Source: Chthoniobacterales bacterium (lineage in GTDB: Bacteria > Verrucomicrobiota > Verrucomicrobiia > Chthoniobacterales > UBA10450). From it: a stretch of 64,000 nt of DNA. Below, one piece after another: positions 6,991 to 64,000 of the stretch. The DNA is taken from positions 527,088 to 591,087 of the forward strand of contig CBDCJI010000001.1 of assembly GCA_965217815.1 (NCBI GenBank). Reading direction: 5' to 3'. The stretch's first letter is position 1, and every line of letters starts with the position of its first letter. The notes beneath the pieces were generated by a model, which saw nothing but the letters and a program-made list of their open reading frames with translations, was not told the origin of the DNA and did no database searches. The position numbers were made by a program, and so were the translations under genes.

Positions 6991-8889
6991 TCAGGCAGAG
7001 GCTTTGGCCAGCTCGGGGCGCGGCGCTGGTTTGACCGGACCGAGCGGGCTCCGCCAGGTGTGGAGCGGAAGCATGCCGATGAGCATCAGTAATACCTGGC
7101 TGAGGGCAAAGCCGATGAGCCAGGGGAAAGCGCTTTCCATGAAGCCGTAGGAGTGCAGACCGATCCCGAGCATGTTCACGCCAAACCAGGACCAGCTCGT
7201 GACGATGTTGCCGAAGATGGCCATGACCATGAGGCCGCGTTGCCGCACCAGTCCGCCCCAGCGGGCGTGCAGGATGATGGCGTTCCAGAGAACGATGAGG
7301 GCCGCGCCGTTTTCCTTCGGGTCCCAACCCCAGAAACGGCCCCAGGATTGATCGGCCCAGATGCCGCCGAGAATGGTGCCGACGAAGCTGAAGAGCGTGG
7401 CGAAACAAACGATCCCGTAAACCATGCGGCTGAGCGAACTCGCGGTCGCGCGATCGAGTGAGGGCGTGAAAGCGCCGCGCACGACGAAGGTGAGGGCGAG
7501 AAAACCGGCCAGGAAGGTGGAGGCATAACCAAGCGTGACCATGACGACGTGGGTGGCCAGCCAGACGTTGGTATCGAGGACGGCGCGCATCATTTCCATG
7601 GTGTCGCCGTCCATGGAGAGATGATGCGCGATGAGAAGGGTGAGGAAACCGATGGCCGCGGCGGTGGCGCTGCCGATGCCGTTGCGGAAGAATCGTTCGA
7701 GGAAAATCCCGAGGAGGACCGCGCCCCAGCCGATGAAGACGGCGGAGGAATAGAGATTGGTCACGGGCGGCCGGCCTTCCAGGTACATACGGGTGCCGAG
7801 CCCGGCGGTGTGGATGACGAAGGTGACGACGAGCAGGACGAAGGCGTAGCGGCCTAAGGTTTGTGGCCAGATGAGCCAGGAGGCGCAGGCGAGGAGAAAG
7901 ATCAGGACGTAGAGCACCATCGCGCTGTAAAAGGGCGCCAATTGGTTAAAGACGGTCTCGACCCGGGCCTTGCGCAGGCGGAGGGAGAAATGCTCCTGCA
8001 GCCAGTCGGTATAGCGCGCGACCGTTTTATTGAAAGTGGCGGGATCGTGAGCGGAGTAAGCCGTCGCCATCGTCGCCCAGGCGGAGACGGCCGGATGCAG
8101 ATTCCCCACGGTGATAAATTGCAAGACGCTCTCGCCCATCTTTCGCCACTGCAGTGGATCGTCGTTAGGCGGGACGGGCGGGATGGGGAAGAAATAACCG
8201 GTCTCAGCGAGAAAGGCGAGACTCTGCAAGGCCTCCGCGGTGATGCCGCTATTCATCGGCGTGGGCGAGGGATGGATGTTCGCGAGCAGGTCGTCGACCT
8301 GCGCTTGGAAGTTCTCCGTGCCGGCGACTTCGAGGCTGTTCTCGAGCCGATGATAAAGGGTCAGCCGCTCGAAGAGCTTGATGATGTCGCGCTGGAAAGG
8401 CGAGCGCAGTGGCGCCTCCACTTTTTGCGCGAGCTCGGCCTGTTGCTCGATCTCAGGCAAGTGGGCGGAAAGATCCAGGAAGGACCAATATTTATCCGGA
8501 TCGGGCAGCAGGCCGAGTGAGCCGAGGAAAGAACTGCCCGCGGCCTTGGTCGGAGCCCGGCCTAACGACGCGCGCAGGAGCGGGCTGCGAATGACAAAAA
8601 GTTTCCGCCGATCCGCTTCGCCCGACTTCATCATCACCTCCGCGAGCCAGTCGATCGGGGTCATCTCGCCGTGCTCGAGCCGGAGGGTCTGGTTGCCGTG
8701 GATGATGAGGAGGGAATTGCGCGCGATCGTGTCGAGCGGCTTGATCCGGCCATTCAAGAGCACCGGCAGGCGGCCGAAATTTTGCATCGCGAAACCGCCT
8801 CGCGTGTCGCGCTGCCCGAGCGGCGCGAGAACGTAGGCGAGCGTGAGGGCGACGATCAGCCAGATGACCCAAGCGCGTGTTTTCTTCAT
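6991..8889 (-). CDS. ccsA: Cytochrome c biogenesis protein CcsA/ResC (System II heme handling), long form
   Basis: Tryptophan-rich WWD motif WGRFWGWDPKENGAALIVLWN, many TM segments, and a 4-nt overlap with the upstream ccsB stop. Confidence 0.9.
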   Translation of the reverse strand: MKKTRAWVIWLIVALTLAYVLAPLGQRDTRGGFAMQNFGRLPVLLNGRIKPLDTIARNSLLIIHGNQTLRLEHGEMTPIDWLAEVMMKSGEADRRKLFVIRSPLLRASLGRAPTKAAGSSFLGSLGLLPDPDKYWSFLDLSAHLPEIEQQAELAQKVEAPLRSPFQRDIIKLFERLTLYHRLENSLEVAGTENFQAQVDDLLANIHPSPTPMNSGITAEALQSLAFLAETGYFFPIPPVPPNDDPLQWRKMGESVLQFITVGNLHPAVSAWATMATAYSAHDPATFNKTVARYTDWLQEHFSLRLRKARVETVFNQLAPFYSAMVLYVLIFLLACASWLIWPQTLGRYAFVLLVVTFVIHTAGLGTRMYLEGRPPVTNLYSSAVFIGWGAVLLGIFLERFFRNGIGSATAAAIGFLTLLIAHHLSMDGDTMEMMRAVLDTNVWLATHVVMVTLGYASTFLAGFLALTFVVRGAFTPSLDRATASSLSRMVYGIVCFATLFSFVGTILGGIWADQSWGRFWGWDPKENGAALIVLWNAIILHARWGGLVRQRGLMVMAIFGNIVTSWSWFGVNMLGIGLHSYGFMESAFPWLIGFALSQVLLMLIGMLPLHTWRSPLGPVKPAPRPELAKASA

Positions 8890-10058
8890 CGGCTTCGCTT
8901 TCTGAGAAAGCCAAACAAGTGCATCGAGAACTGCACGAGCAACCCGAGCCCGACCAGCGCGCAGGCGATATAGGGCAGGAGCATGGCCGGGTTTTTCACC
9001 ACCTGAAGAATGGTCGTCTGATCGTTGTTGTCGAAGCCGGACTGATAAAAAGTGAAGCCGCGATAGCGCAGCGGATCGTTCATGGAGATGAGGACCTCAC
9101 GGTTTTCGCCGCGCTCGAGATCGACCAGGCGGACGCGGCTGGAGAAGTTTTTCGGGATGTCGGTGCCGGCATAACGATCGTGCGAGAAGTGGATCAGGCT
9201 GAGCGCGAATTGCTTGTAGAAACGCCGTTGCCGCATGATCAGCTGGAAGGTGCGATCCCCCACCGCGAGCGGCTGCGGCTGCTCGATCGCGTTCGAGACG
9301 AGCCAGGTGCCTAACGAACCTTGGATGCCGTCGAGCTCGACGAAAGCCGCGCTCAAATCGCGCTCGTCATCCTTGACCGTGCGCGGGATTTCCGCGGCCA
9401 CCACACTCGTGCCGAAGCCGGTGGTGGCGGGCGAGGGCGGCGCCTCCGGTTCCTGCGCGCGCATGGCGAGGTGCGCGTTCGGGAGGAAACGGCGGATTTT
9501 GAGAGTGAAAGGCAGAGCCGGGTTTTGCAGCGTGCCGCCCTCGGCCAGGCGATCTTCGGGAATCGAGACCACCTGGTCGTAGTCGGGGTGAGTCGTCTCG
9601 ATGACGGCCAGCTCGACTTCACGCGGCGCTTCCGAGTAAGCGGAGGTCTGGCCATTATCGAGCCGCATTTGCGTTTCCCGAGCGAAGAGGCCGGTGAGCA
9701 ACTGGCCGATCAACAAAAGGACCACGCCGAGATGGAGCAGAAAGATGCCGATCTTCTTGCGCGAGAGTTGGAAACGGGTGGCATGGGCCGCGAGCAGGTT
9801 GAGGAGGAGGACCGTGCCTAACAAATAACCGCCGGGCAAAACCGGAATCTTCCAGTTCGCTCCGGCGGGCGACCAGAAAACGAAGAGGCTCTGAAAATAA
9901 CGCGCCTGCACCGCATGAATGCCGAGATGGACCTGCGAGAGCGTGCCAAAAAAAATCAGGAGCATTCCGATCCCGAGGCAGACGACGGTGAGCCGGAGGG
10001 AGGCGAGAAAGCGCAGCGGCCCCAGGAATTCGTTAGGCGAAGCGGTCGTCGCGGACAT
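8886..10058 (-). CDS. ccsB: Cytochrome c biogenesis protein CcsB/ResB
   Basis: ResB-like N-terminus LASLRLTVVCLGIGMLLIFFGTLSQV, a large soluble loop and a C-terminal TM (VKNPAMLLPYIACALVGLGLL). It is translationally coupled to ccsA. Confidence 0.85.
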   Translation of the reverse strand: MSATTASPNEFLGPLRFLASLRLTVVCLGIGMLLIFFGTLSQVHLGIHAVQARYFQSLFVFWSPAGANWKIPVLPGGYLLGTVLLLNLLAAHATRFQLSRKKIGIFLLHLGVVLLLIGQLLTGLFARETQMRLDNGQTSAYSEAPREVELAVIETTHPDYDQVVSIPEDRLAEGGTLQNPALPFTLKIRRFLPNAHLAMRAQEPEAPPSPATTGFGTSVVAAEIPRTVKDDERDLSAAFVELDGIQGSLGTWLVSNAIEQPQPLAVGDRTFQLIMRQRRFYKQFALSLIHFSHDRYAGTDIPKNFSSRVRLVDLERGENREVLISMNDPLRYRGFTFYQSGFDNNDQTTILQVVKNPAMLLPYIACALVGLGLLVQFSMHLFGFLRKRSR

Positions 10059-10185
10059 GATCAGGAAAATGACGAAGTGCGAAGTCCGAAATCCGAAGCA
10101 AACCCCAAACCCGAAAGACCAAACAAAAGCAGGCGCGGGGGGTGAATCCTTCGGGCTTCGCGCTTCGTTATTGTTTCGGGCTTCG

Positions 10186-11346
10186 TCATTCGGATTTAGT
10201 CATTTCCCTCGGAAGTTTCAAGCTGCGCAGAAAATCGAGAAAGGCGCTTTTTTGCGCCGCCACGGCAACGTCTTCGCCTGTCATTTTGATAAACCAGGAG
10301 CGCTCGTTCTCGTCCAAAATGGCGGCGAGAATGCGTTGCGAGCCGCCCGCCAGATCGACCACGAGGAAGTCGTGCCCGTTGGCGTTTACATGCTCGGCCG
10401 ACTTCGCCAGCGTATCCTCGTCGATCGGCGGCAGCTTCACCTGCCCGCGCCAGCGATTGACGTTGGCCAGGTCGCCGCCGGCGATTCCGGCGAGGCTGAC
10501 CACGGAGACGTCCGCCTTTTTTCCGTTGGGCGCGACGGCGTCGAAGCTGGCCAGGCGCATGGTCGAGAGCGGTTTCTCTTGCCAGCCGGCCGGCAACTGG
10601 TAGGCCAGCGGGGCGCCAGCCGCGGGTGCAATCGGGGGCGGAGTGGGGGCGTTCGTGCTCCCACTGTCGGCCGTCATCGGCGAGATGCTCGCCCCGGACT
10701 CTTCGGGATGGACGCTCCCGAGGAATTGCCGGAAAGCGTTCCGCTGCGCTTCCACGAGCTGATCCGGCCCCATCATTTTGAAAAACCAGGTCTCGCCCGG
10801 GAGCGGAAAAATCCCGCCGAGGATGCGCGACTTCGCTCCGTCCGGCGTGATCGCCTGCGCGCTCACCAGATCGACGAAAAACAGGTCGCGCCCCGCCACC
10901 GGCATGGGAGTGCCGACTTCGGCTTCGTTGCCAATCGGCGGAAGCTTGAGCTGATCGCGCCAGCGATTCACGTTCGCGAGCAGACCGCCCGCCTGCTCCG
11001 GAAACGAAATCACCGAGACGTCCGCCGTTTTTCCGTCGGGCCCTTTGACTTTGAAGCTGCCTTTACGAAAACCGCTGGCCGGTTGTTCTTCCCAAGCGGC
11101 GGGCGCGGTCCAATGGACTGCCGGCGCGGCCGCGGAATTGAGCGCGGGCGGGGCCGGAGGCGTCTCCTTGGGGATGCGGTAAACCGTAATCTTGTCGTCC
11201 CCGCCGCGGTCACAGCCGGCGCAGAAGAGAAGCGCGGCCAGGAGCGGCGACAGCCTAACGAGTTTGTGCGGAACGATAAACAACGGCTTCACGGGCAGGT
11301 TGCGAAGTACCTGCCAGCGGCGACGGAAGTCAAGAGCAAGGGGCAT
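10186..11346 (-). CDS. Lipoprotein with two tandem homologous domains, function unknown
   Basis: Lipobox LLFCAGC. Two internal repeats each contain K(T/K)ADVSV(I/V)S...ANVNRWR(D/G)Q(L/V)KLPPI ... FFK/FIKMTG. The true start may be an internal GTG. Confidence 0.7.
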   Translation of the reverse strand: MPLALDFRRRWQVLRNLPVKPLFIVPHKLVRLSPLLAALLFCAGCDRGGDDKITVYRIPKETPPAPPALNSAAAPAVHWTAPAAWEEQPASGFRKGSFKVKGPDGKTADVSVISFPEQAGGLLANVNRWRDQLKLPPIGNEAEVGTPMPVAGRDLFFVDLVSAQAITPDGAKSRILGGIFPLPGETWFFKMMGPDQLVEAQRNAFRQFLGSVHPEESGASISPMTADSGSTNAPTPPPIAPAAGAPLAYQLPAGWQEKPLSTMRLASFDAVAPNGKKADVSVVSLAGIAGGDLANVNRWRGQVKLPPIDEDTLAKSAEHVNANGHDFLVVDLAGGSQRILAAILDENERSWFIKMTGEDVAVAAQKSAFLDFLRSLKLPREMTKSE

Positions 11347-11403
11347 GGCGTCGAGGAATCCCGCCAGCTCTGGCGTTCAAGAAAAACGGGCTGGAAGCGA
11401 TCG

Positions 11404-12654
11404 TTAGGCGTCGAGGACGACATCGCTCTTGGGAGCTCCGATGCAGGTTAAACGTGTCCCGGGTTCGGTCTGGAAATCGGATTTTTCGATGTAATCGACT
11501 TCGCCCGAGAAGACCGCGACCTGGCAGGTGCCGCAACTGCCGGCGCGGCAGCCGCTCGGGATGCTGACGCCATTCGCTTCAGCCAAATCGAGCAGGCTGG
11601 TGACGTCGCCGCACCATTGCGCGGTCTTGCCGCTTTTCTTGAATTGCACGGAGTAGCCGGTGGCGATTTTCGCTTCGGGCGAGACGACGGCGGCGACCTT
11701 TTTCACGCTGGAGGGGCCGAAAGTTTCGTAGTGGATGTTCTTCTCGGGAACGTTCCATTCCTTCAGGCCTTCGGTCACATCCTGCATCATCGGCCCCGGG
11801 CCGCAGAGGTAGTAATCGAAGTTATTCGAGGGCAGCACTTTTTTGAAAAGCTCGACCGAGATGCGCGCTTCGTGATGGTAATCGCGCCCCAACTCGTAAT
11901 CCGGGTCGGGCTTACTCGCGCAGACTTGCAGGTGCACGTTCGGATGCTCGCGCGCGATCGCTTCGAGGTGCTCCTTCATGATGTGTTCGGAGCGGTTGCG
12001 AATGCCGTGGAAGAACCAGATCTCGCGCCGCGAACCCTGGGCGACGAGCGTGTTAAGCATGGCGAGGACGGGGGTGAGGCCGATGCCGCTGCCGATGAGG
12101 ACGACGCCGCCGGTGCCCGCCGGGTCGAGGTAAAATTGGCCGGACGGCGCTTTGACATCGAGGATGTCGCCTTCCTTGACCTGGTCGTAGAAGAAGGTAG
12201 AGGCGAGCCCCGGCGGATGGTCCTTATCGCGCGGCGGGATGCGTTTGATGGTGACGCGATAACTATCGGGCCGCGGGCCGTCGGAGAGGCTGTAGCAACG
12301 GACGATCGGCTTGGTTTGGCCGGGGATGTCGAGGTGAAAAGTGAGGTATTGGCCGGGCAGAAAACCGGGAAGGGCTTTCTTATCGTGCGGCGCGAGGTGG
12401 AAGGAGCAGATGTCTTCGCACTCGACGACTTTGCGACCGACGAGGAATTTGCGCCAGCCGTTCCAGGGCAAACCGCTCTCGGCTTTTTGCCGGCGCAGGT
12501 CGCGCATCATTTCGAGCTCGGTTTTGAGCAGCTCGAGGGAAAGTTCGGCCTGCCGATTTTGGCCGCTGAGCCGGCGCAGATTCGCCGCCGTCACCAGCCC
12601 GAGCTGGATCAGTCCGCCGCCGACAAGAAGGCCGCCAAGTGCTTCCGGGATCAT
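11404..12654 (-). CDS. Membrane-anchored FAD/NAD(P)-binding oxidoreductase with a C-terminal plant-type 2Fe-2S ferredoxin domain
   Basis: N-terminal TM helix, RCYSLSD (RxYS FAD motif), GSGIGLTPVLAML (NAD(P) site), CGPGPMM, and the C-terminal CRAGSCGTCQVAV 2Fe-2S motif. Confidence 0.85.
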   Translation of the reverse strand: MIPEALGGLLVGGGLIQLGLVTAANLRRLSGQNRQAELSLELLKTELEMMRDLRRQKAESGLPWNGWRKFLVGRKVVECEDICSFHLAPHDKKALPGFLPGQYLTFHLDIPGQTKPIVRCYSLSDGPRPDSYRVTIKRIPPRDKDHPPGLASTFFYDQVKEGDILDVKAPSGQFYLDPAGTGGVVLIGSGIGLTPVLAMLNTLVAQGSRREIWFFHGIRNRSEHIMKEHLEAIAREHPNVHLQVCASKPDPDYELGRDYHHEARISVELFKKVLPSNNFDYYLCGPGPMMQDVTEGLKEWNVPEKNIHYETFGPSSVKKVAAVVSPEAKIATGYSVQFKKSGKTAQWCGDVTSLLDLAEANGVSIPSGCRAGSCGTCQVAVFSGEVDYIEKSDFQTEPGTRLTCIGAPKSDVVLDA

Positions 12655-55149: not shown

Positions 55150-55187
55150 GCAGACTGAGATAGAGTAGAAATTCTAGTTCCTTGCGA

Positions 55188-55228
55188 CAGGCGGGTGGCG
55201 AAATGCCACCCGCCTGATTCGTTTTCTG
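55188..55228 (+). terminator. Rho-independent terminator of the TonB-dependent receptor gene
   Basis: Perfect 12-bp stem CAGGCGGGTGGC / GCCACCCGCCTG with a 5-nt loop, followed by ATTCGTTTTCT. Confidence 0.7.
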
Positions 55229-55819
55229 GGGGAGCTCGGGATAGAAATTCCTGGTGCAATCTCTCGGAACCCGCCCTTCGCTCTCAAGGCCAAACTGGCG
55301 CTTCAGGATACCGAGTGAGAGGATCGCGACTGGTTCCCTTTCGACTTTTTGTCTCAATATCCACTCGCACCGAGCATCTTCCCTGTAATCTGGGGACCGT
55401 CGTCATGGCCATTCGCATCTCCTGACACTCTGCTCTCCCTTCCGCCCCATCGTGGGTATGGCCCCAGCTTTGTCGACAAAGCCAGGTAATCACTTCTGGC
55501 CCCGCCTTTTCGGGCATAACCGCTCGCTTAAACCTCCCGGAAGCGTAGTCGGTCAACCGGTGGCGGTGGGGATACGCATTAACCCTTTGACCGTAGCCGC
55601 TAAGTCCCGATTCGGAACGCCTGAGCCATTTCCCACTTGGGACCGAATTGGATTTAGATCGACCTGACCTGGAGCTGAGACATTTCGCTCCTCGGAAGCC
55701 TTCTCTGAAGCGAGGCGCGCTTAGGGGACTGAGGCGCGTTGGATCCGCCGGGCGCGCGTCGCTAGTGGAGGTTTTATGTTAGGGGGACTTGGCCAATTTA
55801 TCTCCTACTGTGGAGACAC

Positions 55820-56665: not shown

Positions 56666-56909
56666 GGGCTGCGCGCATTCAGCGCCGCAACAGAGAATTC
56701 GGAAACTGACGATGCTCGCTCCCATCGTATCCCAGTCGGGCGACCCGTAAAGAGGGAATTCGACCGCGGCCCGGCCGAGGTTGGCCGGCGGCTGGAGAAA
56801 TAGAGGGCGTTATCAGCGGGGATCCCTTTCCTGCGTTTGCCCCCGGGCCGGTCGGCTAGAGAATGTCTCGCACTTGAAACGTCTATCAGGGCGCAACGGC
56901 CGTTCGGGG

Positions 56910-57043
56910 GAGCGCACGCGCCTCGCGTGCTGGCGAGGGTGCCTCGCCCTCGCGAACTTTTCTTCCGCGCTTCGAGACCAAAGAGCGGCCTCAAAGTTCG
57001 TTTTGGCGAGGCGCCAAAACCAGCACGCGAGGCGCGCGCGCTC
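56910..57043. repeat. 134-bp element bounded by 24-bp inverted repeats (GAGCGCACGCGCCTCGCGTGCTGG / CCAGCACGCGAGGCGCGCGCGCTC)
   Basis: 23 of 24 positions are complementary. The interior holds further small palindromes (cgagggtgcctcgccctcg, ttttggcgaggcgccaaaa). It sits in a gene-less stretch. Confidence 0.6.
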
Positions 57044-57934
57044 CTCAGAGAAAGTCCACCTCCATCGCGCCATCCAAGTTCATGACGCCCTCTAGGTAGG
57101 CATGATAGCTTTCGGGCAGCACGGAGTCCGCCACGGCTTCCTCGGATGATGCGGACTGGGAAGCGCGAGCCCACGCTGTCGGATGAGTCGGAGACCACGC
57201 CTCATTGGCGCCTAACATCCCACTCTTGTCCGTTTGGGCTCACCCCTAAGAATGGTCCGTTAAAGCAGTAGCGGATCCGCTCCACACCTCGATTGGGCGG
57301 CTCAGAGTGGAACGGGTCCGGGCTTTGCGTCACCTCGCTGTACCCGTACAGGCAGCTGAATCCCAGAAAGGGCTGTTGGTGTTCGCAACCTCGAGCGGAA
57401 AGGGGGGTCGAAGCGAGGCGCGGAGGGACGCACAGGCTAGAACAGCGTCCCCTGCGCCCTCCTCACGGCGCGATGCGACGGAAGGTGATGCGTGCGGCGT
57501 GAAGACTCCCTCCCGTAAGAGGGCGTCTGAAAAGTCGGTTTCTGTGGGGTGAACTATAGGACGACACCTCGGTCGCCCAGTTTCTGCCGCAGCAGGAACC
57601 GCGGCGTGCGTAGCGCCCGCCGCTACGATTCGTCTATCAACAACTTTAGACGCCTTTAAGATCGGCAGTCCAGTCCGCCTTCGCTCTGATCGCGCAGAGA
57701 ATTCCGGCGCGGCAGACGCCACGGAAACCAAGGACTTGGTACCCGGGAAGTTGCTCCCCCTGCGGCCGGTGCGCCCGTGTCGGCCGTTAGCGAGAATAGG
57801 TATCCGCCCGCGAAACTGACGAACGCAAGGCAAATGGAATATCAGATCGAAGTATCTGTCCCTCTGCCATTTATAACGAAGTCCTCCCGCCCAGGCTCGC
57901 TCTAACCGTTTCCTGAGGTTATCTGGCATACCTG

Positions 57935-58540
57935 ATGCTTATAGTAATTATATATATTATGATTCTTGTAAGCCTCAATCCATTCGCCCTTAAACGTTTC
58001 GTCTTCGTTCTTCTCGCCCTCCTCGGGCTCTCCTGTATCTCCGCCTACGCCGAGCCGCTCTTCTTAAGCGTCAAATCCACCCCTTACGATCACCAAATGA
58101 GCCGAATCCGTCCAGTTCTCCTCACTGCGAGCGAATCCGCTAATAAAGACGGCGTCTCGATGCGGATTGTGAACCACTGGATCGGCGATCTGCGTTCTAT
58201 CCCTTATGGTTTCACCCAGCAGTGGAAGACCCCCGAGGAAACGGCTTCCGGGGCCCCTGCGGATTGCAAAGCCAAGGCAGTGGCCCTCTACCAACGGATG
58301 AGGGACCATGGCGCCGCCAACGTTCGTCTCGTCATTGGCAAGCGCACCCCGTCCAGCCCCTCGACCCACGCGTGGGTCGAATGGGAAACCGCTAATGGAA
58401 ATTACGTGCTCGATCCTACGATCAACTGGATGGCCTATCGTGAAAGCGAACTAGGCTCGCGTTCCTACGTTGCTTATTATGCCTTCTCCGGCGGACGCAA
58501 ATACCGCGCGAGTTCGGCCGCTCTCGTTGCGCAGAACTAA
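57935..58540 (+). CDS. Transglutaminase-like cysteine peptidase (Cys-His-Asp), secreted
   Basis: Signal/TM start. ADCKAKAVALYQRM ... THAWVEWETANGNYVLDPT matches the transglutaminase-like C...H...D spacing. Confidence 0.65.
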   Translation: MLIVIIYIMILVSLNPFALKRFVFVLLALLGLSCISAYAEPLFLSVKSTPYDHQMSRIRPVLLTASESANKDGVSMRIVNHWIGDLRSIPYGFTQQWKTPEETASGAPADCKAKAVALYQRMRDHGAANVRLVIGKRTPSSPSTHAWVEWETANGNYVLDPTINWMAYRESELGSRSYVAYYAFSGGRKYRASSAALVAQN

Positions 58541-58999
58541 GGCGATCGGGGATTCGCAAGGGCCTCCTCGGCCCGACTTCCTGGGTCGATTAGGGGATCA
58601 AGAAAGGGTAAAGCCGACTAAAGTTGCAGCCGCGCCCGATGGAAAATCTCCCTCCGGCGACGCTGCCGTTTAAGCCGATTTTTCAGGAATCAAACCCGCT
58701 CCTCCCCAATTCAAAAAGGGCGCCTGCCCGCAATCGGATTGATTTGGGGGAGCGCTGCTCTCCCCCTGTCCTTCCCGACGGTGACGGCTTGCACGGGTAA
58801 AATGACTGTCCTCGATGTCTTCCCCATGCCTCACTCTGGAACGCTGACGGCTTGCACAAGCGAAAAAATACCCGACTCTCCCCTGCTTCGCGGAGAGGGG
58901 GCGAACGCCGCTCTTTACCGGAGGTGCAAAAAGTTTTGCGTCAATCAAATATTTTTGTTGCCAAACTCCCGCAGTTTTTCTATTCTCGTTTTTGTAGCT

Positions 59000-60406
59000 A
59001 TGGAAATTATGAAGACAAAATCACTCGCATCTCGCACTAAGCTCGTTCTCCTTTGCGCCGCCCTCGCCGCGCCTTCCGTTGGTTTCGCCTCCGATTTGGT
59101 GCTGCAAAAAGCACCTCCTCTGACGGTGGAGCAAGCCCCCGCTTATCCGGAAAACCTGGCGCGCTATCATTTCGGAGCCGAGGTCACCGCTCTCCCGCGA
59201 ACGAATTCCACTGCCAGCCTCCTCCTGAGCTCGAACGGGGAAGACCGCAACACGTCCGCTGCCGCTTTGCTCTGCGACGATCCGACCACCGGCTACGAAT
59301 TGCCGGCGGGCCAATCGAGCGTTCTCGTTTCGCTTGCGAACATCGAGAACATTCAAAGCATCTCGCTGCGCAATGACGGCGCGAAAGGAAATCTCACGAT
59401 CGCCATTTCGAACGCCGACGTTCCCGCCAACAGCCCCGAGTGGCGCCAAGTGCAGCAGCGGCCCATGAGTGAAGGCGCGATCACGGCGAAAGTGGGCCCG
59501 GGCGAGGCGAAGTATGTCAAGCTCACCTTTGATATTACCGCGCCCGGCCGGATCGCTTCCTTCGGCGTTTACGCGACTCCCGCCGTCTCCGACTTCACCA
59601 TGCCCCGGCCCCGGAAGGTCAGTTTTGAGAACGACTCGCCCAGCTTCGCGCTCATCAACTATAACTTCACCGATCTCCATGTCCGGGCTCGCGCGCTCTA
59701 TGCCAGCTCGGGGGACGTGAAACAGCTCAACCAGATGATCGACGATCAACCGGGCACCGCCTACCAATTCGCCGCGGGCGATGGTTCGCCTACCGCCGTG
59801 ATCGATCTGGGCCGGGAACGCACCCTGACCCGTCTCTCTGCCGTCTACGCGGCGCAGGCGGGCAGCGTCGACTTTTACGTCCTCCAGAGCCTTCCGGCGG
59901 GCGTGCCTAACGACTCCGAGATGCAAAAGATTTCCAACCCCCCGCAAACCGCCGATCTTCCTGGCAGCCTGAAAATTAACGAGCAGACCCTGGCTGGGCT
60001 GAAACCGGTTGGCTCTGTCGTCAGCACCGAGGCAGGCCGCGCCGCGGTCGATTTCCCGGCGACCACGGGACGCTACGTGATGTTAAAGTGGCATCCGGCC
60101 ACCGTGCAGGGAGGAGCTTTCTCGGTCGCGCAAGTGGCTGCCTTTGGCCGGCGCAAGAGTTCCCAAGATGCCGGGGCGGACCAGGTGAGCGACAATGATT
60201 CGACCGACGGCAAGCAAGTCGCTGATGGCAAAGATTTGATGGACGGAAAGCAAATTGCCGATGGCAAGAGTATCCTCGACAACAAGGACATTCCCGCCGA
60301 AGGGCCCCTCTCGGAAGCTCAGCCGCCCGCCGAAGGCCCACCGCCCGCTTTGCCTCAAGTCCCGCCGTTCACCTTCATCCCGCAGGTCGGCCCGACCAGC
60401 CCCTAA
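59000..60406 (+). CDS. Secreted protein with two discoidin/F5-8 type C-like domains and a C-terminal DGK-repeat, Pro-rich tail
   Basis: Signal peptide MEIMKTKSLASRTKLVLLCAALAAPSVGFA begins at the ATG at 59000. Two galactose-binding-like modules (..LLCDDPTTGYELPAG..ISLRNDG.., ..MIDDQPGTAYQF..VIDLGRERTL..GRYVMLKW). The track start at 58739 was rejected. Confidence 0.7.
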   Translation: MEIMKTKSLASRTKLVLLCAALAAPSVGFASDLVLQKAPPLTVEQAPAYPENLARYHFGAEVTALPRTNSTASLLLSSNGEDRNTSAAALLCDDPTTGYELPAGQSSVLVSLANIENIQSISLRNDGAKGNLTIAISNADVPANSPEWRQVQQRPMSEGAITAKVGPGEAKYVKLTFDITAPGRIASFGVYATPAVSDFTMPRPRKVSFENDSPSFALINYNFTDLHVRARALYASSGDVKQLNQMIDDQPGTAYQFAAGDGSPTAVIDLGRERTLTRLSAVYAAQAGSVDFYVLQSLPAGVPNDSEMQKISNPPQTADLPGSLKINEQTLAGLKPVGSVVSTEAGRAAVDFPATTGRYVMLKWHPATVQGGAFSVAQVAAFGRRKSSQDAGADQVSDNDSTDGKQVADGKDLMDGKQIADGKSILDNKDIPAEGPLSEAQPPAEGPPPALPQVPPFTFIPQVGPTSP

Positions 60407-60568
60407 CGTAAACAACTTCGACTGCGAGTGCCCGTTCGCCGGTCCCCGTGACCAGCGGACGGGTTTCGCTTTTTCAAGCTAGAGGGCGTTTTAGCCCTAA
60501 CGATGCAATTGGAAGTGGAAGGAGGGGGCGTCGGTGTAGCGGCGACGCCCTCGTCGCCTGGAAGTGGA

Positions 60569-60685: not shown

Positions 60686-61942
60686 TTAGAGTTGGTCCCG
60701 AATGATCTGGAAGATGATCGTATTATCGAGAAAGCCATGGAGCTTCTCACTGCCCGGCCCGCTTCCGGCCGCCAACACATCGGTCGCCGTCGTCCGGGCC
60801 AGAGGCGAGAAGATTGCGGCCGGCTCCTGATTGGCGTTCTCCCGAGGAAATCCTTCCCCGCTGGCGATCGTGGAGGGAGGCGGCTCCCGGGGTCCGTTCG
60901 GACCGCTCGCCCAGGTCAAGGCGGGTTCTCCCGCGGCATTGATTCCCAGCAGGGCGATGCCGCGATCACGACGAAAAGGAGCGCCGCTTAAGGTAAGGCC
61001 GCCGATTCCCAGATTGCCCGTGACCAGAATGGTGGAATTTTCGCCTGCATAGCTGCCTGCGACTGCCACGGCCCGATCCAGTCTAACGGTTTCAGTCAAA
61101 GTTTGCTCCCCGTGATTTTGCCGCGCCGCCAGTCCCATCAGGCCAGCATCGACGATTAATAAATAACCTCCTGGGTTCCATTGCAGGAGTTCGATTGCGC
61201 GCCGGGTCATATCCGGCAAACTGGGTTGCTCTCCGCCTGCCGCTCTCGGATTGGCCAGGACGGTTTCGCCGCTGGGGAAGAGGCCGAGTAAACGCGGCCG
61301 GCGCCAGCGCGGGACATTCTCCAGTTCGGCCTTGCTGCGCACGAGCTCAAAGCCATTTCGACGCAGTTCGAGGAGCAGATCGCGACCATCGTTGCGCTGA
61401 CCGCCTTTCGCTTCCGGAAGGAATTCGCCACCCGCACCGCCGAGCGCGAGGTCGATTTTCCGCCCCTCTGCAAACTGCCGGGCATTATCCTCCACCCCTC
61501 CCTCGCTCTGCGCATAAAAGGCTGCCGCCGTCGGGTTCGTTAGGTTGGCGTCCGTGACCAAGCCGATGGCTCGGCCTTTGGCGCGGGCCAGATCGATCAT
61601 GGTGGCGAGCGCCTTGCCTTTCGGATCGCGGCCGAGAACGCCGTTATTTACCTTCTGCCCCGTGGCCAGCGTAGTGGCCGCCGCGCTCTCGTCTGGCGTC
61701 GCGAAGTCGGCCGAAGCATTGGCCAGCGAGGCCATAGCGGGAAGCGACTCGATGGCTAGGCGCGAGTTGGCGCCCCCCGCGTAGAGACGCGCCGCGGCGA
61801 GCCGGCCCGGCGTGAGCCCCTCCCCGATGAAGAGCACGATGCCGAAAGGCTTTTGCACCACCCAGTGGCGGAAATAAAGCACGCCCAAGGCGCCGAAAAT
61901 CGTGAGGCAAAGCAGAGCCAGGATCTGATTGCGCCAGCGCAT
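60686..61942 (-). CDS. Alkaline phosphatase (PhoA family)
   Basis: TPDESAAATTLATGQK (active-site Ser context), plus GLVTDANLTNPTAAAFYA and overall PhoA-like sequence. Confidence 0.85.
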   Translation of the reverse strand: MRWRNQILALLCLTIFGALGVLYFRHWVVQKPFGIVLFIGEGLTPGRLAAARLYAGGANSRLAIESLPAMASLANASADFATPDESAAATTLATGQKVNNGVLGRDPKGKALATMIDLARAKGRAIGLVTDANLTNPTAAAFYAQSEGGVEDNARQFAEGRKIDLALGGAGGEFLPEAKGGQRNDGRDLLLELRRNGFELVRSKAELENVPRWRRPRLLGLFPSGETVLANPRAAGGEQPSLPDMTRRAIELLQWNPGGYLLIVDAGLMGLAARQNHGEQTLTETVRLDRAVAVAGSYAGENSTILVTGNLGIGGLTLSGAPFRRDRGIALLGINAAGEPALTWASGPNGPREPPPSTIASGEGFPRENANQEPAAIFSPLARTTATDVLAAGSGPGSEKLHGFLDNTIIFQIIRDQL

Positions 61943-62034: not shown

Positions 62035-63567
62035 ATGGCGAAACCGGTGCTTCTCGTGATTCGCGACGGCTGGGGAATCAATCCGGGCGGTCGGGCCGCG
62101 CGCGAGCAAAATGGCGACGCCACCCTGCTCGCGCAGACTCCCTTCCACGACCAGCTTTACCGCGACTATCCCACGTCCACCTTGCGGGCCAGCGGCCGGG
62201 ACGTCGGCCTCCCGGATGGACAGATGGGAAATTCCGAAGTCGGCCATCTCAATCTGGGCGCGGGCCGGATCGTTTATCAGGATCTCACTCGGATCAACAA
62301 AGCCATCGCCGACGGCGACTTGAGGCGGAATCAGGTTTTACAGGATGCCTTCGCTCAGGCCCGCACCGGACGGCTCCATTTTATCGGGCTCGTCTCGGAC
62401 GGAGGCGTGCACAGTCATTACCGCCATCTCTTCGCCTTGGCCGAGGCCGCGCGCGAGGCCGGCGTGGGTGAGATTCTCGTCCACGCGATTACGGATGGCC
62501 GCGATGCTTCGCCCACTGGCGGGGCCGCTTACCTCACGACCTGTGCGGCGGAGCTTGCCCGGAGCGGCGCGCGTCTGCTTACCGTGGTCGGCCGTTATTT
62601 TGCGATGGACCGGGACCGGCGCTGGGACCGGACCAAGCTGGCCTGGGACGCCATCGTTCTCGGGCGCGGCGAACTTTGCTCCGAAACGCCCGCGGCCGCC
62701 GTCCGCCGGCATTACGAGGCGGGCAAAACGGACGAGTTCATGCCGCCCTTGATCTTTTCCGAGCCTAACGAACAACGGATTCGGGACGGCGACACCATCC
62801 TCTTCTTTAACTTTCGCGCCGATCGCGCGCGGCAGCTCTCCCAGGCTTTCCTTTTGCCGGATTTCGAGGGTTTCGACCGCGAGGTTTGGCCGCGGATTCA
62901 TTACGTCACCCTGACCGAGTTTGATGCCACTTACGACTGTTCGGTCGTCTTCGGGCCGCAGTCTTTGCCAAATATTCTCGGCCAAGTCGTGAGCGCCGCG
63001 GGCCGCACGCAATTGCGCATCGCGGAGACGGAGAAATATCCGCATGTCACTTATTTCTTTAACGGAGGGGTGGAAGAGCCCTGGCCGGGAGAAGAACGCA
63101 AAATCATCCCGTCCCCCAAAGTCGCCACTTACGATTTGCAGCCGGAGATGAGCGCAGGGCAGGTGACCGACGAGGTGCTTAGCCAGTTGGCGCAGTACGA
63201 TCTGATAATTTTGAATTACGCCAACCCGGACATGGTTGGGCATACCGGCGTGGTGCCGGCGGGCGTGCACGCGGTCGAGACAATCGACGCTGCGGTGGCG
63301 CGGCTCGTCGCGGCCGCCTTGTCGTTAGGCGGGAAACTTCTCCTCACCGCCGATCACGGCAATTGCGAACAGATGCGCAATCCAGACGGCTCGCCGAACA
63401 CAGCGCATACGACGAATTTGGTGCACTTAATTTACGTGGCGGACAATGCGAAAAGCTTCCGGCTGGAGGACGGCATTCTGGCCGATATTGCGCCGACGCT
63501 GCTTTTCCTTCTCGGCCTGCCGCAGCCTCCGGAAATGACGGGTCACAATTTACTCGTCGCCCTGTAG
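62035..63567 (+). CDS. gpmI: 2,3-bisphosphoglycerate-independent phosphoglycerate mutase
   Basis: MAKPVLLVIRDGWG, MGNSEVGHLNLGAGR, SDGGVHSH and ADHGN motifs. The ATG at 62035 is used. Confidence 0.93.
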   Translation: MAKPVLLVIRDGWGINPGGRAAREQNGDATLLAQTPFHDQLYRDYPTSTLRASGRDVGLPDGQMGNSEVGHLNLGAGRIVYQDLTRINKAIADGDLRRNQVLQDAFAQARTGRLHFIGLVSDGGVHSHYRHLFALAEAAREAGVGEILVHAITDGRDASPTGGAAYLTTCAAELARSGARLLTVVGRYFAMDRDRRWDRTKLAWDAIVLGRGELCSETPAAAVRRHYEAGKTDEFMPPLIFSEPNEQRIRDGDTILFFNFRADRARQLSQAFLLPDFEGFDREVWPRIHYVTLTEFDATYDCSVVFGPQSLPNILGQVVSAAGRTQLRIAETEKYPHVTYFFNGGVEEPWPGEERKIIPSPKVATYDLQPEMSAGQVTDEVLSQLAQYDLIILNYANPDMVGHTGVVPAGVHAVETIDAAVARLVAAALSLGGKLLLTADHGNCEQMRNPDGSPNTAHTTNLVHLIYVADNAKSFRLEDGILADIAPTLLFLLGLPQPPEMTGHNLLVAL

Positions 63568-63674
63568 ACGCTTCGCTCTGCCAAGCGCGGGGGGTGGCGT
63601 TCGTCGTTAGGGGAGGCGCAAATTATTTCCCGCCGCCCAGGTATCTGTTTAGTCCAACGAGGAGCCTGGCGCTC

Positions 63675-63802
63675 TGTCATCCCTGAGGCCGGCGCAGCGC
63701 GCCGAGGGATCTCGCGGTTGCTCTGATGGGTCCATCTGTCCTAAAGAACGACGCCGAGACCTTGCGCGAGATCCCTCGCCGTCTGTGCGGGCTCGGATGA
63801 CA
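63675..63802. repeat. Palindromic intergenic repeat, family 1, diverged copy C
   Basis: tgtcatccctgag..gcgcagcgcgccgagggatctcgcgg and cgcgagatccctcgcc..gggctcggatgaca are inverted. The arms carry small insertions relative to copies A and B. Confidence 0.6.
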
Positions 63803-64000
63803 AAATGAAGCGGGCGAGTAAACGCAAGACACCTCCAGGAGTGAACGCTAAACAGATACGTGGCGGAGCGGGAATGACTCGCGGCCCTAACGAACAACGC
63901 AATCCTCGCGCTCGCGGAGCGAAGCGTCTAGAGGAGCGCCCCAACCTAACGAAGTCGACTGGTTAGCTAGACCGAAGCGGTCGTCGCGGGCTCCCGGCTG

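What the first reader, a model, noticed from the sequence alone, without database searches (positions are those of the whole stretch)
8162..63952. Hyper-abundant dispersed word GCCTAACGA (core CCTAACGA): candidate DNA-uptake-signal-like genome signature
Reading the window by eye, I found 48 exact copies of the 8-mer core. There are 30 copies as CCTAACGA on the + strand, starting at 8561, 9310, 11254, 17176, 20917, 21799, 22306, 23576, 23952, 28859, 29720, 30350, 34607, 35162, 35704, 35781, 35925, 40033, 45207, 46108, 46758, 50244, 50423, 51689, 51714, 59906, 60496, 62764, 63886 and 63945. There are 18 copies as TCGTTAGG, starting at 8162, 10030, 11401, 19495, 25413, 27430, 29127, 29449, 31829, 33939, 34374, 41209, 49546, 49792, 51628, 61537, 63322 and 63604. 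One-mismatch variants also occur, for example at 9817, 14722, 17681, 20530, 22627, 26472, 32188, 36536, 37351, 39629, 40024, 45186, 46294, 49454 and 60402. Most copies are preceded by G. An 8-mer containing four A/T bases in GC-rich DNA should occur only about once or twice by chance in 2 x 64 kb. The word sits inside genes in several reading frames relative to the host gene, being translated as PNE/PND, SLG or VR(R), and it appears in both orientations. It also occurs in intergenic DNA and as inverted pairs. Selection therefore seems to act on the DNA, not on a peptide. Its density in host-like segments, roughly one per 1-1.5 kb, is similar to the known densities of Neisseria DUS and Pasteurellaceae USS. 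A comEC gene is present in the same window. The orientation bias is only moderate (30:18), which argues against a strictly polar KOPS/Chi-type signal but does not exclude one. I know of no described uptake signal with this sequence.
Basis: partly seen in the sequence, partly recalled or inferred. Interest (0 to 1): 0.85.

Follow-up and report, generated by a model that had tools for sequence, protein, structure and literature searches.

The report
Uptake-signal-like 9-mer in soil Verrucomicrobia
A nine-base DNA word, GCCTAACGA, occurs about once per kilobase in this uncultured soil bacterium (order Chthoniobacterales) and in its relatives; its statistics match the DNA-uptake tags that Neisseria and Haemophilus use to recognise their own DNA, which have been described in only those two families.

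Summary
CCTAACGA occurs 48 times in the window (30 +, 18 -) against about 1 expected. The real unit is the 9-mer GCCTAACGA, with 38 copies against 0.7 expected. Flanks are unique, so it is not part of a larger repeat.

The window comes from an uncultured Chthoniobacterales bacterium (Verrucomicrobiota). Four other genomes of this clade (76-84% identity in one enzyme) carry the word at 0.7-1.2 copies per kb.

Selection acts on the DNA:
- All four stop-free reading frames are used, and the other two frames supply stop codons.
- 42 of 48 Pro-Asn-Asp/Glu tripeptides are spelled CCT-AAC (3 expected).
- Copies arise by point substitution and are kept at orthologous sites 3.3 times more often than control 8-mers.
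- Perfect copies outnumber all single-mismatch copies (109 vs 86).
- Three foreign-looking segments have none.
- Orientation follows the gene strand, whereas GGCGCTGG in the same DNA is truly strand-polar (26:2).

A sister clade lacks this word and has an unrelated one, AAGATCGACA, at the same density.

The best reading is a DUS/USS-type DNA-uptake signal, at about 50% confidence. The function is untested, no receptor is known, and the word does not associate with terminators as DUS and USS do.

The parts
8162..8169 (-). word copy, in CDS (ccsB-like gene), same strand as the gene, read as Pro-Asn-Asp
8561..8568 (+). word copy, in CDS, antisense to the gene (Ser-Leu-Gly)
9310..9317 (+). word copy, in CDS, antisense (Ser-Leu-Gly)
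10030..10037 (-). word copy, in CDS, same strand (Pro-Asn-Glu)
11254..11261 (+). word copy, in CDS, antisense (Val-Arg frame)
11401..11408 (-). word copy whose TAA is the stop codon of gene 11404-12654 (-)
17176..17183 (+). word copy, in CDS (multihaem cytochrome), same strand (Pro-Asn-Glu)
19495..19502 (-). word copy, in CDS 19482-20303 (+), antisense
20917..20924 (+). word copy, in CDS, same strand (Pro-Asn-Glu)
21799..21806 (+). word copy, in CDS, same strand (Pro-Asn-Glu)
22306..22313 (+). word copy, in CDS, same strand (Pro-Asn-Glu)
23576..23583 (+). word copy, intergenic
23952..23959 (+). word copy, intergenic, between convergent genes
25414..25421 (-). word copy inside comEC, same strand (Pro-Asn-Glu)
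27430..27437 (-). word copy, intergenic, 16 nt upstream of the comEC start
28859..28866 (+). word copy, in CDS 28476-30455, same strand (Leu-Thr frame)
29127..29134 (-). word copy, in CDS, antisense; shared with L083 at the orthologous site
29449..29456 (-). word copy, in CDS, antisense; shared with L083
29720..29727 (+). word copy, in CDS, same strand; shared with L083
30350..30357 (+). word copy, in CDS, same strand; shared with L081
31829..31836 (-). word copy, in CDS (cysJ-like gene), same strand
33939..33946 (-). word copy, in CDS 33588-34436 (+), antisense
34374..34381 (-). word copy, in CDS 33588-34436 (+), antisense; conserved in all five genomes
34607..34614 (+). word copy in the fumarylacetoacetase gene; conserved in 4 of 5 genomes
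35162..35169 (+). word copy in the fumarylacetoacetase gene; conserved in 3 of 5 genomes, with CCTAACAA in a fourth
35704..35711 (+). word copy in the fumarylacetoacetase gene (Leu-Thr frame); shared with L083 and L084
35781..35788 (+). word copy whose TAA (35783-35785) is the stop codon of the fumarylacetoacetase gene
35925..35932 (+). word copy, in CDS 35872-36441, same strand
40033..40040 (+). word copy, intergenic between PDH E1-beta and E2. It forms an inverted pair with the variant TTGTTAGG at 40024, whose TAG is the E1-beta stop codon.
41209..41216 (-). word copy in the PDH E2 gene, antisense; shared with L083 and L084
45207..45214 (+). word copy at codons 4-6 of gene 45198-45560. Together with the variant at 45185 it forms an inverted pair that brackets the ribosome-binding site and ATG; the pair is conserved in L081 and L083.
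46108..46115 (+). word copy in the dGTPase gene, same strand; shared with L081
46758..46765 (+). word copy, intergenic (convergent genes)
49546..49553 (-). word copy, in CDS (sugar transferase), antisense
49793..49800 (-). word copy in the riboflavin synthase gene, same strand
50244..50251 (+). word copy whose complement supplies the TAG stop codon of gene 50245-51531 (-)
50423..50430 (+). word copy, in CDS, antisense
51628..51635 (-). word copy, intergenic (divergent region)
51689..51696 (+). word copy, intergenic; first of a direct pair 17 nt apart
51714..51721 (+). word copy, intergenic; second of the direct pair
59906..59913 (+). word copy, in CDS, same strand
60496..60503 (+). word copy, intergenic
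61537..61544 (-). word copy, in CDS, same strand
62764..62771 (+). word copy in gpmI, same strand
63322..63329 (-). word copy in gpmI, antisense
63604..63611 (-). word copy, downstream of gpmI
63886..63893 (+). word copy near the window end (no gene called)
63945..63952 (+). word copy near the window end (no gene called)
25131..27413 (-). Full-length comEC (DUF4131, Competence and metallo-beta-lactamase domains). It is the only competence gene visible in the window.
1..5301 (.). Word-free segment. It is an integrated mobile element carrying a TrwC/MobF relaxase-helicase and a tyrosine integrase, and it abuts the tmRNA gene at 5302-5657.
41373..45197 (.). Word-free segment that includes a low-GC island (GC 0.49; HTTM/VKGC-like genes) and modA. 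It is not syntenic with relatives.
51722..59905 (.). Word-free segment of lower GC (0.57-0.59) carrying a TonB-dependent receptor and a methyltransferase. It is not syntenic with relatives.

Best explanation
GCCTAACGA is a lineage-specific 'self' tag of a Chthoniobacterales clade and is of the same kind as the DNA uptake sequences of Neisseriaceae (DUS) and Pasteurellaceae (USS).

Proposed mechanism, all inferred: a surface DNA receptor of the competence machinery, most plausibly a type IV pilus or pseudopilus minor pilin, binds double-stranded DNA carrying the 9-mer preferentially. Such fragments pass the outer membrane and enter the cytoplasm as single strands through ComEC, then recombine with the chromosome. 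Because alleles that carry the word are imported more often than alleles that lack it, any point mutation creating the word is over-transmitted. This is molecular drive, possibly reinforced by selection for taking up conspecific DNA. The word therefore accumulates wherever the genome tolerates it.

What is shown here is the accumulation pattern. The word sits in every open reading frame, in stop codons and in spacers. It distorts codon choice and the proteome. It is kept at orthologous sites and also arises anew by substitution. It is missing from recently acquired DNA. What is not shown is biased uptake, or transformation at all, in these uncultured bacteria.
For: 1. Density and excess. The window has 48 copies against 0.95 expected. 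Pooled over five genomes (149 kb), the 9-mer occurs 109 times against 1.8 expected, about one per kb. This is the order of density reported for USS and DUS (PMC1626085, read).

2. Flanks are unique, so the word is not part of a mobile repeat.

3. The consensus is anomalously sharp. There are 109 perfect copies against 86 singly mismatched copies, although 27 different single-mismatch sequences are possible. The control word GGCGCTGG has 28 perfect against 408. PMC1626085 singles out this pattern as peculiar to USS and DUS, in contrast to ordinary protein-binding sites.

4. Selection is on the DNA. All four stop-free frames are used, and the two frames with stops serve as stop codons. 42 of 48 Pro-Asn-Asp/Glu tripeptides are spelled CCT-AAC (3.1 expected), and 24 of 40 Ser-Leu-Gly tripeptides are spelled TCG-TTA (0.35 expected).

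5. Copies arise by point substitution, some of it non-synonymous, at aligned positions of orthologous genes. Copies are shared between genome pairs at 45% of sites, against 13.6% for control 8-mers in the same alignments.

6. The word is conserved across a clade with 76-84% fumarylacetoacetase identity and GC of 0.57-0.63. It is absent from more distant relatives. A sister clade carries an unrelated word, AAGATCGACA, at the same density, in both orientations and in all six frames, with 47 perfect against 30 single-mismatch copies. This resembles the distinct uptake-sequence types of different lineages.

7. Three foreign-looking segments of the window (a relaxase/integrase element at the tmRNA gene, a low-GC island, and a non-syntenic lower-GC block) have no copies in 5.3, 3.8 and 8.2 kb.

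8. There is no replication-type polarity. Orientation follows the gene strand: 48:28 (+:-) in + genes and 10:15 in - genes. In the same DNA, GGCGCTGG is 26:2 on one strand whatever the gene strand.

9. A full-length comEC is present.
Against: No uptake or transformation data exist for any Chthoniobacterales, and no paper linking the order to competence was found. comEC alone is weak evidence because it is widespread; pilus, ComEA, DprA and receptor genes could not be examined.

Several DUS/USS features were tested and not met:
- The word is not built into terminator-like hairpins.
- Close inverted pairs are rare.
- It is not clearly enriched in non-coding DNA: 4 of 79 copies are intergenic in relatives with 8.4% noncoding.
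- Its spacing is clustered rather than even, with a coefficient of variation of 1.32.

It also shows a 63:38 preference for the coding strand. I attribute this to codon cost, but a transcription-linked role would produce the same bias.
Confidence: 0.5

Rival explanations
1. The word is an intracellular 'self' signal read by a recombination, repair or defence enzyme. It would be a Chi-like site for a RecBCD/AddAB-type nuclease-helicase, or a marker that spares host DNA from a defence nuclease. It would be kept dense by selection for chromosome survival.
For: The word is dense in native DNA and absent from foreign segments. It is conserved across a clade and arises by point mutation. Known Chi sites share these properties (my own knowledge). 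No viral contig with host-like density was found, so the word does look host-specific.
Against: Known Chi sites are co-oriented with replication. This word follows the gene strand and shows no residual strand bias, while a separate G-rich word, GGCGCTGG, is 26:2 polar in the same DNA and fits that role better. The excess, about 60-fold for a 9-mer, and the excess of perfect over single-mismatch copies (109 vs 86) are far beyond what is known for Chi; the Chi comparison rests on my own knowledge.
Confidence: 0.17
2. The word is a by-product of a sequence-specific mutation or repair bias. Examples are a methyltransferase paired with a very-short-patch-type nickase, or biased gene conversion, that converts near-cognate sequences into the word. 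This is the kind of drive proposed for the cyanobacterial HIP1 palindrome. No cellular function of the word itself would be needed.
For: The consensus is very sharp, with single-mismatch variants at background in core positions 3-7. New copies appear by substitution. The only enriched variant, GCCTAACAA, is a CpG-to-CpA change (17 against 0.7 expected).
Against: A contiguous, asymmetric 9-bp specificity is unusual for methyltransferase and repair systems (my own knowledge). No such gene pair is seen in the window. Known repair-driven word biases are a few-fold, not about 60-fold (my own knowledge). The model does not by itself explain why recently acquired DNA living in the same cell is still free of the word, unless the conversion is slow.
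Confidence: 0.13
3. The word is the binding site of an abundant chromosome-organising or transcription-associated protein, such as a nucleoid-associated protein or an elongation/pausing factor that reads the non-template strand. Selection for genome-wide coverage would keep it dense.
For: The density is genome-wide, and there is a modest but significant preference for the coding strand (63:38). All five copies lying between co-directional genes point in the direction of transcription.
Against: Sites of ordinary DNA-binding proteins have relaxed consensus sequences, whereas here perfect copies exceed single-mismatch copies (argument from PMC1626085). A third of in-gene copies are antisense and still far above expectation. 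The strand preference is explained by codon cost: the antisense frames need the very rare TTA and AGG codons, which are 2.8% and 2.9% of Leu and Arg codons.
Confidence: 0.1
4. The word is not a real signal. It could be a fragment of a dispersed mobile repeat, a consequence of a favoured peptide or codon pair, compositional chance, or a systematic long-read basecalling artefact.
For: Several of the related contigs come from long-read metagenome assemblies.
Against: Flanks are unique. Six reading contexts are used, and synonymous codon choice is distorted toward the word. No shuffle comes near the observed count. The word is present in independent assemblies from different projects and at orthologous protein positions.
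Confidence: 0.02

Closest known systems
Uptake signal sequences (USS) of Pasteurellaceae: AAGTGCGGT (Hin type) and ACAAGCGGT (Apl type)
   Same: Both are asymmetric 9-bp cores at about one copy per kb in both orientations. In both, perfect copies outnumber single-mismatch copies. Both arise by point mutation within coding sequences and impose particular tripeptides on proteins. Both are shared across a family-level clade, with a different type in a sister clade, and both are absent from foreign DNA. USS properties are from PMC1626085; the properties of this word are.
   Different: The sequence is unrelated and the phylum is different (Verrucomicrobiota rather than Gammaproteobacteria). No AT-rich flanking motif is seen. 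There is no preference for non-coding DNA or terminators, and spacing is clustered. Uptake bias is undemonstrated. The two Chthoniobacterales words are unrelated to each other, whereas the USS types differ at 3 positions.
DNA uptake sequences (DUS) of Neisseriaceae (GCCGTCTGAA and dialects), bound by the minor pilin ComP
   Same: Both are hyper-abundant, lineage-specific, non-palindromic words of about 10 bp that mark native DNA and are missing from integrated mobile elements. PMC7371117 uses the absence of DUS to find integrative conjugative elements. Here the relaxase/integrase element at the tmRNA gene is word-free.
   Different: About half of DUS copies lie in terminators, often as inverted pairs (10.1101/2025.10.24.684340). 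That is not the case here. No ComP-like receptor has been identified, and no experimental uptake data exist.
Chi sites (RecBCD/AddAB) and KOPS (FtsK-orienting polar sequences)
   Same: These are also short chromosomal words that are enriched in native DNA and conserved among relatives.
   Different: Chi and KOPS are strand-polar with respect to replication, and this word is not. The polar word in this DNA is GGCGCTGG, at 26:2. The excess and the sharpness of consensus here are also much greater.
HIP1 (GCGATCGC) of cyanobacteria
   Same: HIP1 is also a hyper-abundant 8-mer at about one per kb. It lies inside genes in several frames, is lineage-specific, and has no settled function.
   Different: HIP1 is a palindrome tied to a cognate methyltransferase site (my own knowledge). 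GCCTAACGA is asymmetric.

Membership tests
DUS/USS-type DNA uptake sequences | A short word present at about one copy per kb, orders of magnitude above compositional expectation | tested here: met
   The window has 48 copies against 0.95 expected. Over 149 kb from five genomes the 9-mer occurs 109 times against 1.8 expected.
DUS/USS-type DNA uptake sequences | More perfect copies than singly mismatched copies (anomalously strong consensus) | tested here: met
   There are 109 perfect copies against 86 single-mismatch copies; the control word GGCGCTGG has 28 against 408. The criterion is taken from PMC1626085.
DUS/USS-type DNA uptake sequences | Copies arise by point mutation in pre-existing sequence, not by insertion of an element | tested here: met
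   Flanks are unique. Codon alignments show substitution series at aligned positions, for example gCTcAgGA / CCTgACGA / CCggAgGA / CCTAACGA.
DUS/USS-type DNA uptake sequences | No significant orientation bias with respect to replication | tested here: met
   Orientation follows the gene strand (48:28 in + genes, 10:15 in - genes). An internal polar control word is 26:2. Only about 150 kb of one syntenic region was available; no whole genome was tested.
DUS/USS-type DNA uptake sequences | Shared by related genomes, with a different type in other lineages | tested here: met
   Four further clade genomes carry the word at 0.7-1.2 copies per kb. The sister clade has AAGATCGACA instead.
DUS/USS-type DNA uptake sequences | Under-represented in horizontally acquired DNA | tested here: met
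   There are no copies in the relaxase/integrase element (5.3 kb), the low-GC island segment (3.8 kb) or the non-syntenic lower-GC block (8.2 kb), against about 1 per kb elsewhere.
DUS/USS-type DNA uptake sequences | Preferential location in non-coding DNA and terminators, often as close inverted pairs | tested here: not met
   In relatives, 4 of 79 copies are intergenic with 8.4% of bases noncoding. No terminator-like stem is built from the word. Only two exact-plus-variant inverted pairs occur in the window.
DUS/USS-type DNA uptake sequences | More even spacing than random | tested here: not met
   The coefficient of variation of inter-copy distances is 1.32 pooled, which means clustering, with gaps over the most conserved genes. 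The sample is small.
DUS/USS-type DNA uptake sequences | Competent cells take up DNA carrying the word preferentially | not testable with these tools
   This needs an uptake or transformation assay. The organisms are uncultured.
DUS/USS-type DNA uptake sequences | Complete competence machinery and a sequence-specific receptor (ComP-type minor pilin) | tested here: inconclusive
   A full-length comEC is present. Pilus, comEA, dprA and receptor genes lie outside the DNA available.
Chi / KOPS polar chromosomal signals | Strong strand skew co-oriented with replication, independent of gene strand | tested here: not met
   One search shows no such skew for the word. Searches show that skew for GGCGCTGG in the same DNA.
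REP/MITE-type dispersed repeats | A conserved element longer than the core, usually palindromic and intergenic | tested here: not met
   Nothing is conserved beyond position -1. Most copies (69% in the window, 86% in relatives) are inside coding sequence.
HIP1-type iterated palindromes | A palindromic word matching a methyltransferase site | tested here: not met
   The word is asymmetric, as the sequence shows. Methylation status cannot be tested here.

The most novel reading that the evidence does not exclude
Chthoniobacterales are among the most abundant uncultured soil bacteria. On this reading they practise sequence-specific natural transformation, and different clades use unrelated uptake words: GCCTAACGA in this one and AAGATCGACA in a sister clade. 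These would be the third and fourth independent origins of DNA uptake sequences, and the first outside Proteobacteria and in free-living soil organisms. The clade-to-clade switch of word would give a direct handle for finding the receptor by phylogenetic profiling.
Probability: 0.45. Interest if true: 0.9.

Novelty: new variant of a known kind. Interest (0 to 1): 0.8.

Why it matters
Uptake sequences have been described in only two proteobacterial families, both mostly animal-associated (PMC1626085; 10.1101/2025.10.24.684340). A signature with the same statistics in soil Verrucomicrobiota would show three things:
- Self-preferring DNA uptake, or whatever process produces such words, is not a peculiarity of those two families.
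- Homologous recombination by transformation may shape the populations of a dominant, uncultured soil lineage.
- Proteomes there are measurably bent by a DNA-level signal, since nearly all Pro-Asn-Asp/Glu tripeptides are spelled by the word.

There are practical uses too. The word is a ready marker for native versus acquired DNA and for binning these genomes. It is also an obvious element to add to DNA when attempting genetic transformation of Chthoniobacterales. The existence of two unrelated words in sister clades makes the receptor question testable by comparative genomics. If the word turns out not to be an uptake signal, it is a hyper-abundant motif with no known mechanism, which would be equally interesting.

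Tried and rejected
1. Larger repeat: rejected, because the flanks are unique.

2. Peptide or codon-usage origin: rejected, because six reading contexts are used and codon choice is strongly non-random.

3. Intergenic enrichment: my first crude gene calls suggested 18 of 48 copies were intergenic. Better calls reduce this to 12 of 48 in the window and 4 of 79 in relatives, so I dropped the claim.

4. Terminator role: rejected.

5. Even spacing: not seen.

6. KOPS/Chi polarity: rejected for this word. A different word, GGCGCTGG, has that property.

7. A CCTAACAA 'dialect' in a Verrucomicrobiaceae metagenome-assembled genome (L007; 6 copies against 0.16 expected in 15 kb): not confirmed in three relatives with 85-92% gpmI identity (L166-L168). 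I treat it as unproven.

8. Apparent strand polarity of AAGATCGACA in L001: not general, since other loci are 9:7 and 10:8.

9. Exact-protein look-ups of window proteins, to recover the source contig, failed. Cluster members carry no organism names. The source can therefore be named only as an uncultured Chthoniobacterales bacterium, from the best matches.

10. A viral-contig scan for two copies within 30 nt gave 34 hits. All were chance pairs or tandem repeats, and none had host-like density. The sensitivity of this scan is moderate.

11. Full-text literature searches for the 9-mer found only primers and oligonucleotides. Searches for uptake sequences or competence in Verrucomicrobia, Chthoniobacterales or Udaeobacter found nothing relevant.

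Full report
**1. Observation**

CCTAACGA occurs exactly 48 times in the window, 30 on the + strand and 18 on the - strand. Dinucleotide-preserving shuffles give a mean of 0.95 and a maximum of 5.

The base before the core is G in 38 of 48 copies. Beyond that position the flanks are unique, with only a weak pyrimidine preference at -5 to -3. GCCTAACGA is the most over-represented 9-mer in the window, with 38 copies against 0.67 expected under an order-3 Markov model. One-mismatch variants of the 8-mer are not enriched as a class (46 observed, 39.6 expected). The exception is CCTAACAA, with 7 copies against 0.75.

**2. Source organism**

The window encodes:
- multihaem cytochromes and cytochrome c biogenesis proteins;
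- a full-length ComEC (25131-27413, - strand; DUF4131, Competence and metallo-beta-lactamase domains);
- fumarylacetoacetase;
- the pyruvate dehydrogenase E1-alpha, E1-beta and E2 genes;
- a dGTPase, riboflavin synthase and gpmI;
- a tmRNA gene at 5302-5657.

The best matches for gpmI among species-representative genomes are Chthoniobacterales metagenome-assembled genomes at 72-73% identity. The fumarylacetoacetase has a 100% identical database entry on a 996-kb contig, and its closest named relatives are all Chthoniobacterales. The source is therefore an uncultured member of Chthoniobacterales (Verrucomicrobiota).

**3. Selection acts on the DNA**

With refined gene calls, 33 copies lie in coding sequence, 3 overlap a stop codon and 12 are intergenic. 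Within genes, all four reading frames that contain no stop codon are used. These read Pro-Asn-Asp/Glu, x-Leu-Thr, Ser-Leu-Gly and x-Val-Arg. The two remaining frames contain TAA or TAG, and they are used as stop codons. Examples are the fumarylacetoacetase stop at 35783-35785 and the stops of genes 11404-12654 and 50245-51531. In four relatives, 7 of 79 copies overlap a stop codon.

Synonymous codon choice is overridden. In the five genomes pooled, 42 of 48 Pro-Asn-Asp/Glu tripeptides are spelled CCT-AAC, against 3.1 expected from codon usage. Likewise, 24 of 40 Ser-Leu-Gly tripeptides are spelled TCG-TTA, against 0.35 expected, although TTA makes up only 2.8% of Leu codons.

**4. Conservation in relatives**

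I fetched four related genomes through their fumarylacetoacetase proteins: L081 and L082 (84% identity), L083 (80%) and L084 (76%; GCA_036494545.1). L081, L083 and L084 are largely syntenic with the window; L082 is rearranged around the shared genes.

Per roughly 21 kb they carry 26, 15, 16 and 22 copies, against 0.4-1.2 expected. Their GC content ranges from 0.57 to 0.63. Pooled over 149 kb, the 9-mer occurs 109 times against 1.8 expected. Positions 3-7 (CTAAC) tolerate essentially no change. Positions 1, 2, 8 and 9 tolerate a few variants, chiefly G8 to A.

Perfect copies (109) outnumber all singly mismatched copies together (86). For the control word GGCGCTGG the figures are 28 and 408. Codon alignments of orthologous genes show that copies appear and disappear by point substitution, some of it non-synonymous, at aligned positions. 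One example is column 1080 of fumarylacetoacetase, which reads gCTcAgGA, CCTgACGA, CCggAgGA, tCggAtGA and CCTAACGA in the five genomes. A site that carries the word in one genome carries it in another in 45% of pairwise comparisons. Control 8-mers in the same alignments are identical in 13.6% of comparisons.

**5. Where the word is missing**

Three stretches of the window have no copy:
- 1-5301 is an integrated element carrying a TrwC/MobF relaxase-helicase and a tyrosine integrase, next to the tmRNA gene. An AbiEii toxin gene lies just beyond the tmRNA gene.
- 41373-45197 includes a GC 0.49 island with HTTM/VKGC-like genes.
- 51722-59905 has GC 0.57-0.59 and carries a TonB-dependent receptor.

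The last two stretches are not syntenic with relatives. At about 1 copy per kb elsewhere, zero copies in 5.3, 3.8 and 8.2 kb is unlikely by chance; a Poisson model gives about 0.005, 0.02 and 0.0003.

**6. Orientation**

Over the five genomes there are 75 copies on + and 52 on -. Inside genes, the word lies on the coding strand in 63 cases and on the other strand in 38 (p = 0.017). The bias follows the gene: 48:28 (+:-) in + genes and 10:15 in - genes.

The same DNA contains a good internal control. GGCGCTGG is 26:2 on the + strand, including 7:1 inside - strand genes, and 13:1 in the window alone, without being over-represented. That is the behaviour expected of a replication-polar signal of the KOPS or Chi kind. 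GCCTAACGA does not behave this way.

Codon cost explains the mild coding-strand preference. The antisense frames need the very rare TTA and AGG codons.

**7. DUS/USS features that are not seen**

- No terminator-like hairpin is built from the word.
- Close inverted pairs are few and involve a variant copy (40024/40033 and 45185/45207 in the window; one exact pair in L081).
- Spacing is clustered rather than even, with a coefficient of variation of 1.32 and long gaps over the most conserved genes such as PDH E1.
- In relatives with independent gene calls, only 4 of 79 copies are intergenic, with 8.4% of bases noncoding.

**8. Phylogenetic limits and a second word**

None of 80 loci around gpmI from species-representative genomes has the word enriched. 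This includes 19 Verrucomicrobiota, among them two Chthoniobacterales at 72-73% gpmI identity.

Eighty soil-metagenome loci around more distant ComEC homologues (51-58% identity, one short locus at 77%; GC about 0.55; 711 kb) carry it at only 0.075 per kb. One locus, L136, is intermediate at 0.4 per kb.

Many of those loci, and the genome L001, instead carry an unrelated word, AAGATCGACA followed by A or T. Examples are 16 copies in 11.8 kb (L086) and 18 in 15.5 kb (L154). This word has unique flanks, occurs in both orientations and in all six frames, and has 47 perfect against 30 single-mismatch copies. It is at background in the window clade. Some sister loci have neither word. Sister lineages of one order therefore carry different, mutually exclusive hyper-abundant words.

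**9. Interpretation**

PMC1626085 lists the hallmarks of USS and DUS: about one copy per kb, no orientation bias, many copies in coding sequence, origin by point mutation, sharing within a family with different types in sub-clades, and the 'puzzling' excess of perfect over singly mismatched copies, which distinguishes them from ordinary protein-binding sites.

All of these are met here. The exclusion from mobile and foreign DNA, which is exploited in Neisseria (PMC7371117), is met too. I therefore consider a DUS/USS-type uptake tag, accumulated by biased uptake plus homologous recombination, the best explanation, at about 50% confidence.

The steps that are shown are the accumulation pattern, its action at the DNA level, its conservation and turnover, and the lack of polarity. 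The steps that are inferred are the receptor, the uptake bias and transformation itself.

The rivals and my estimates are:
- a non-polar intracellular self signal for a recombination or defence enzyme (about 0.17);
- a repair or methylation-driven conversion bias like that proposed for HIP1 (about 0.13);
- sites for an abundant chromosomal or transcription-associated protein (about 0.10);
- an artefact, a mobile repeat or a peptide effect (about 0.02, effectively excluded).

**10. Novelty**

Full-text searches found the 9-mer only in primers and oligonucleotides. They found nothing on uptake sequences or competence in Verrucomicrobia, Chthoniobacterales or Udaeobacter. Both a 2006 paper and a 2025 preprint treat uptake sequences as confined to Pasteurellaceae and Neisseriaceae.

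I rate the finding as a new variant of a known kind. It has the same genomic signature as uptake sequences but occurs in a new phylum with new words, and it lacks the terminator association.

Noticed in passing
L086, L100, L149, L154, L148, L152, L001 (for example L086:751-10921): A second, unrelated hyper-abundant word, AAGATCGACA followed by A or T, occurs at about 1 per kb in a sister clade of Chthoniobacterales (GC about 0.55). It occurs in both orientations and in all six frames, has unique flanks, and has more perfect than single-mismatch copies. It is at background in the window clade.
   Followed up: partly
window 3077, 7022, 24702, 29620, 32151, 36171, 36459, 46124, 46134, 47769, 48705, 51954, 62618 (+) and 4199 (-): GGCGCTGG is strongly strand-polar: 13:1 in the window, and 26:2 over five genomes, including 7:1 inside - strand genes. 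It is not over-represented. It is a candidate KOPS- or Chi-type polar signal for this lineage, and it marks + as the probable leading strand.
   Followed up: partly
window 1-6715: An integrated mobile element with a TrwC/MobF relaxase-helicase (47-2854) and a tyrosine integrase (4047-5108, - strand) abuts the tmRNA gene (5302-5657, - strand; tag ADHQDLALAA). An AbiEii toxin gene (5712-6506) with a small upstream partner ORF lies on the other side of the tmRNA gene. No copy of the word occurs before 8162.
   Followed up: partly
window 45185-45214; L081:19267-19296; L083:18886-18921: A conserved inverted pair, TTGTTAGGC-N14-20-GCCTAACGA, brackets the ribosome-binding site and ATG of a 120-aa gene upstream of the dGTPase gene. 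As RNA it could form a 9-bp stem (with one G-U pair) that sequesters the start site.
   Followed up: no
window 41934-43267: A low-GC island (GC about 0.49) encodes an HTTM-domain protein and a protein with the lumenal domain of vitamin K-dependent gamma-carboxylase. It is absent from the syntenic relatives.
   Followed up: no
L007:288-14230: CCTAACAA, one mismatch away from the window word, occurs 6 times in 15 kb (0.16 expected) in a Verrucomicrobiaceae metagenome-assembled genome. Three relatives with 85-92% gpmI identity (L166-L168) do not show it, so a 'dialect' is unproven.
   Followed up: yes
L136:1-22286: A more distant ComEC-bearing soil contig (GC 0.58) has an intermediate density of CCTAACGA (9 copies in 22 kb), usually without the preceding G, and 27 copies of the shorter TAACGA. 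This could be an emerging, decaying or looser form of the word.
   Followed up: no
L011:1-21527 (Haloferula sargassicola): GGCGATCGC occurs 11 times against 1.6 expected, and CGATCGCC 16 times in 21.5 kb. This is a HIP1-like palindrome enriched in another verrucomicrobial genome.
   Followed up: no
window 27536-28462 and 28476-30455: A stand-alone metallo-beta-lactamase-fold hydrolase is transcribed divergently from comEC. It is followed by a 659-aa protein with no Pfam match that carries five copies of the word. The arrangement is conserved in L081 and L083.
   Followed up: no
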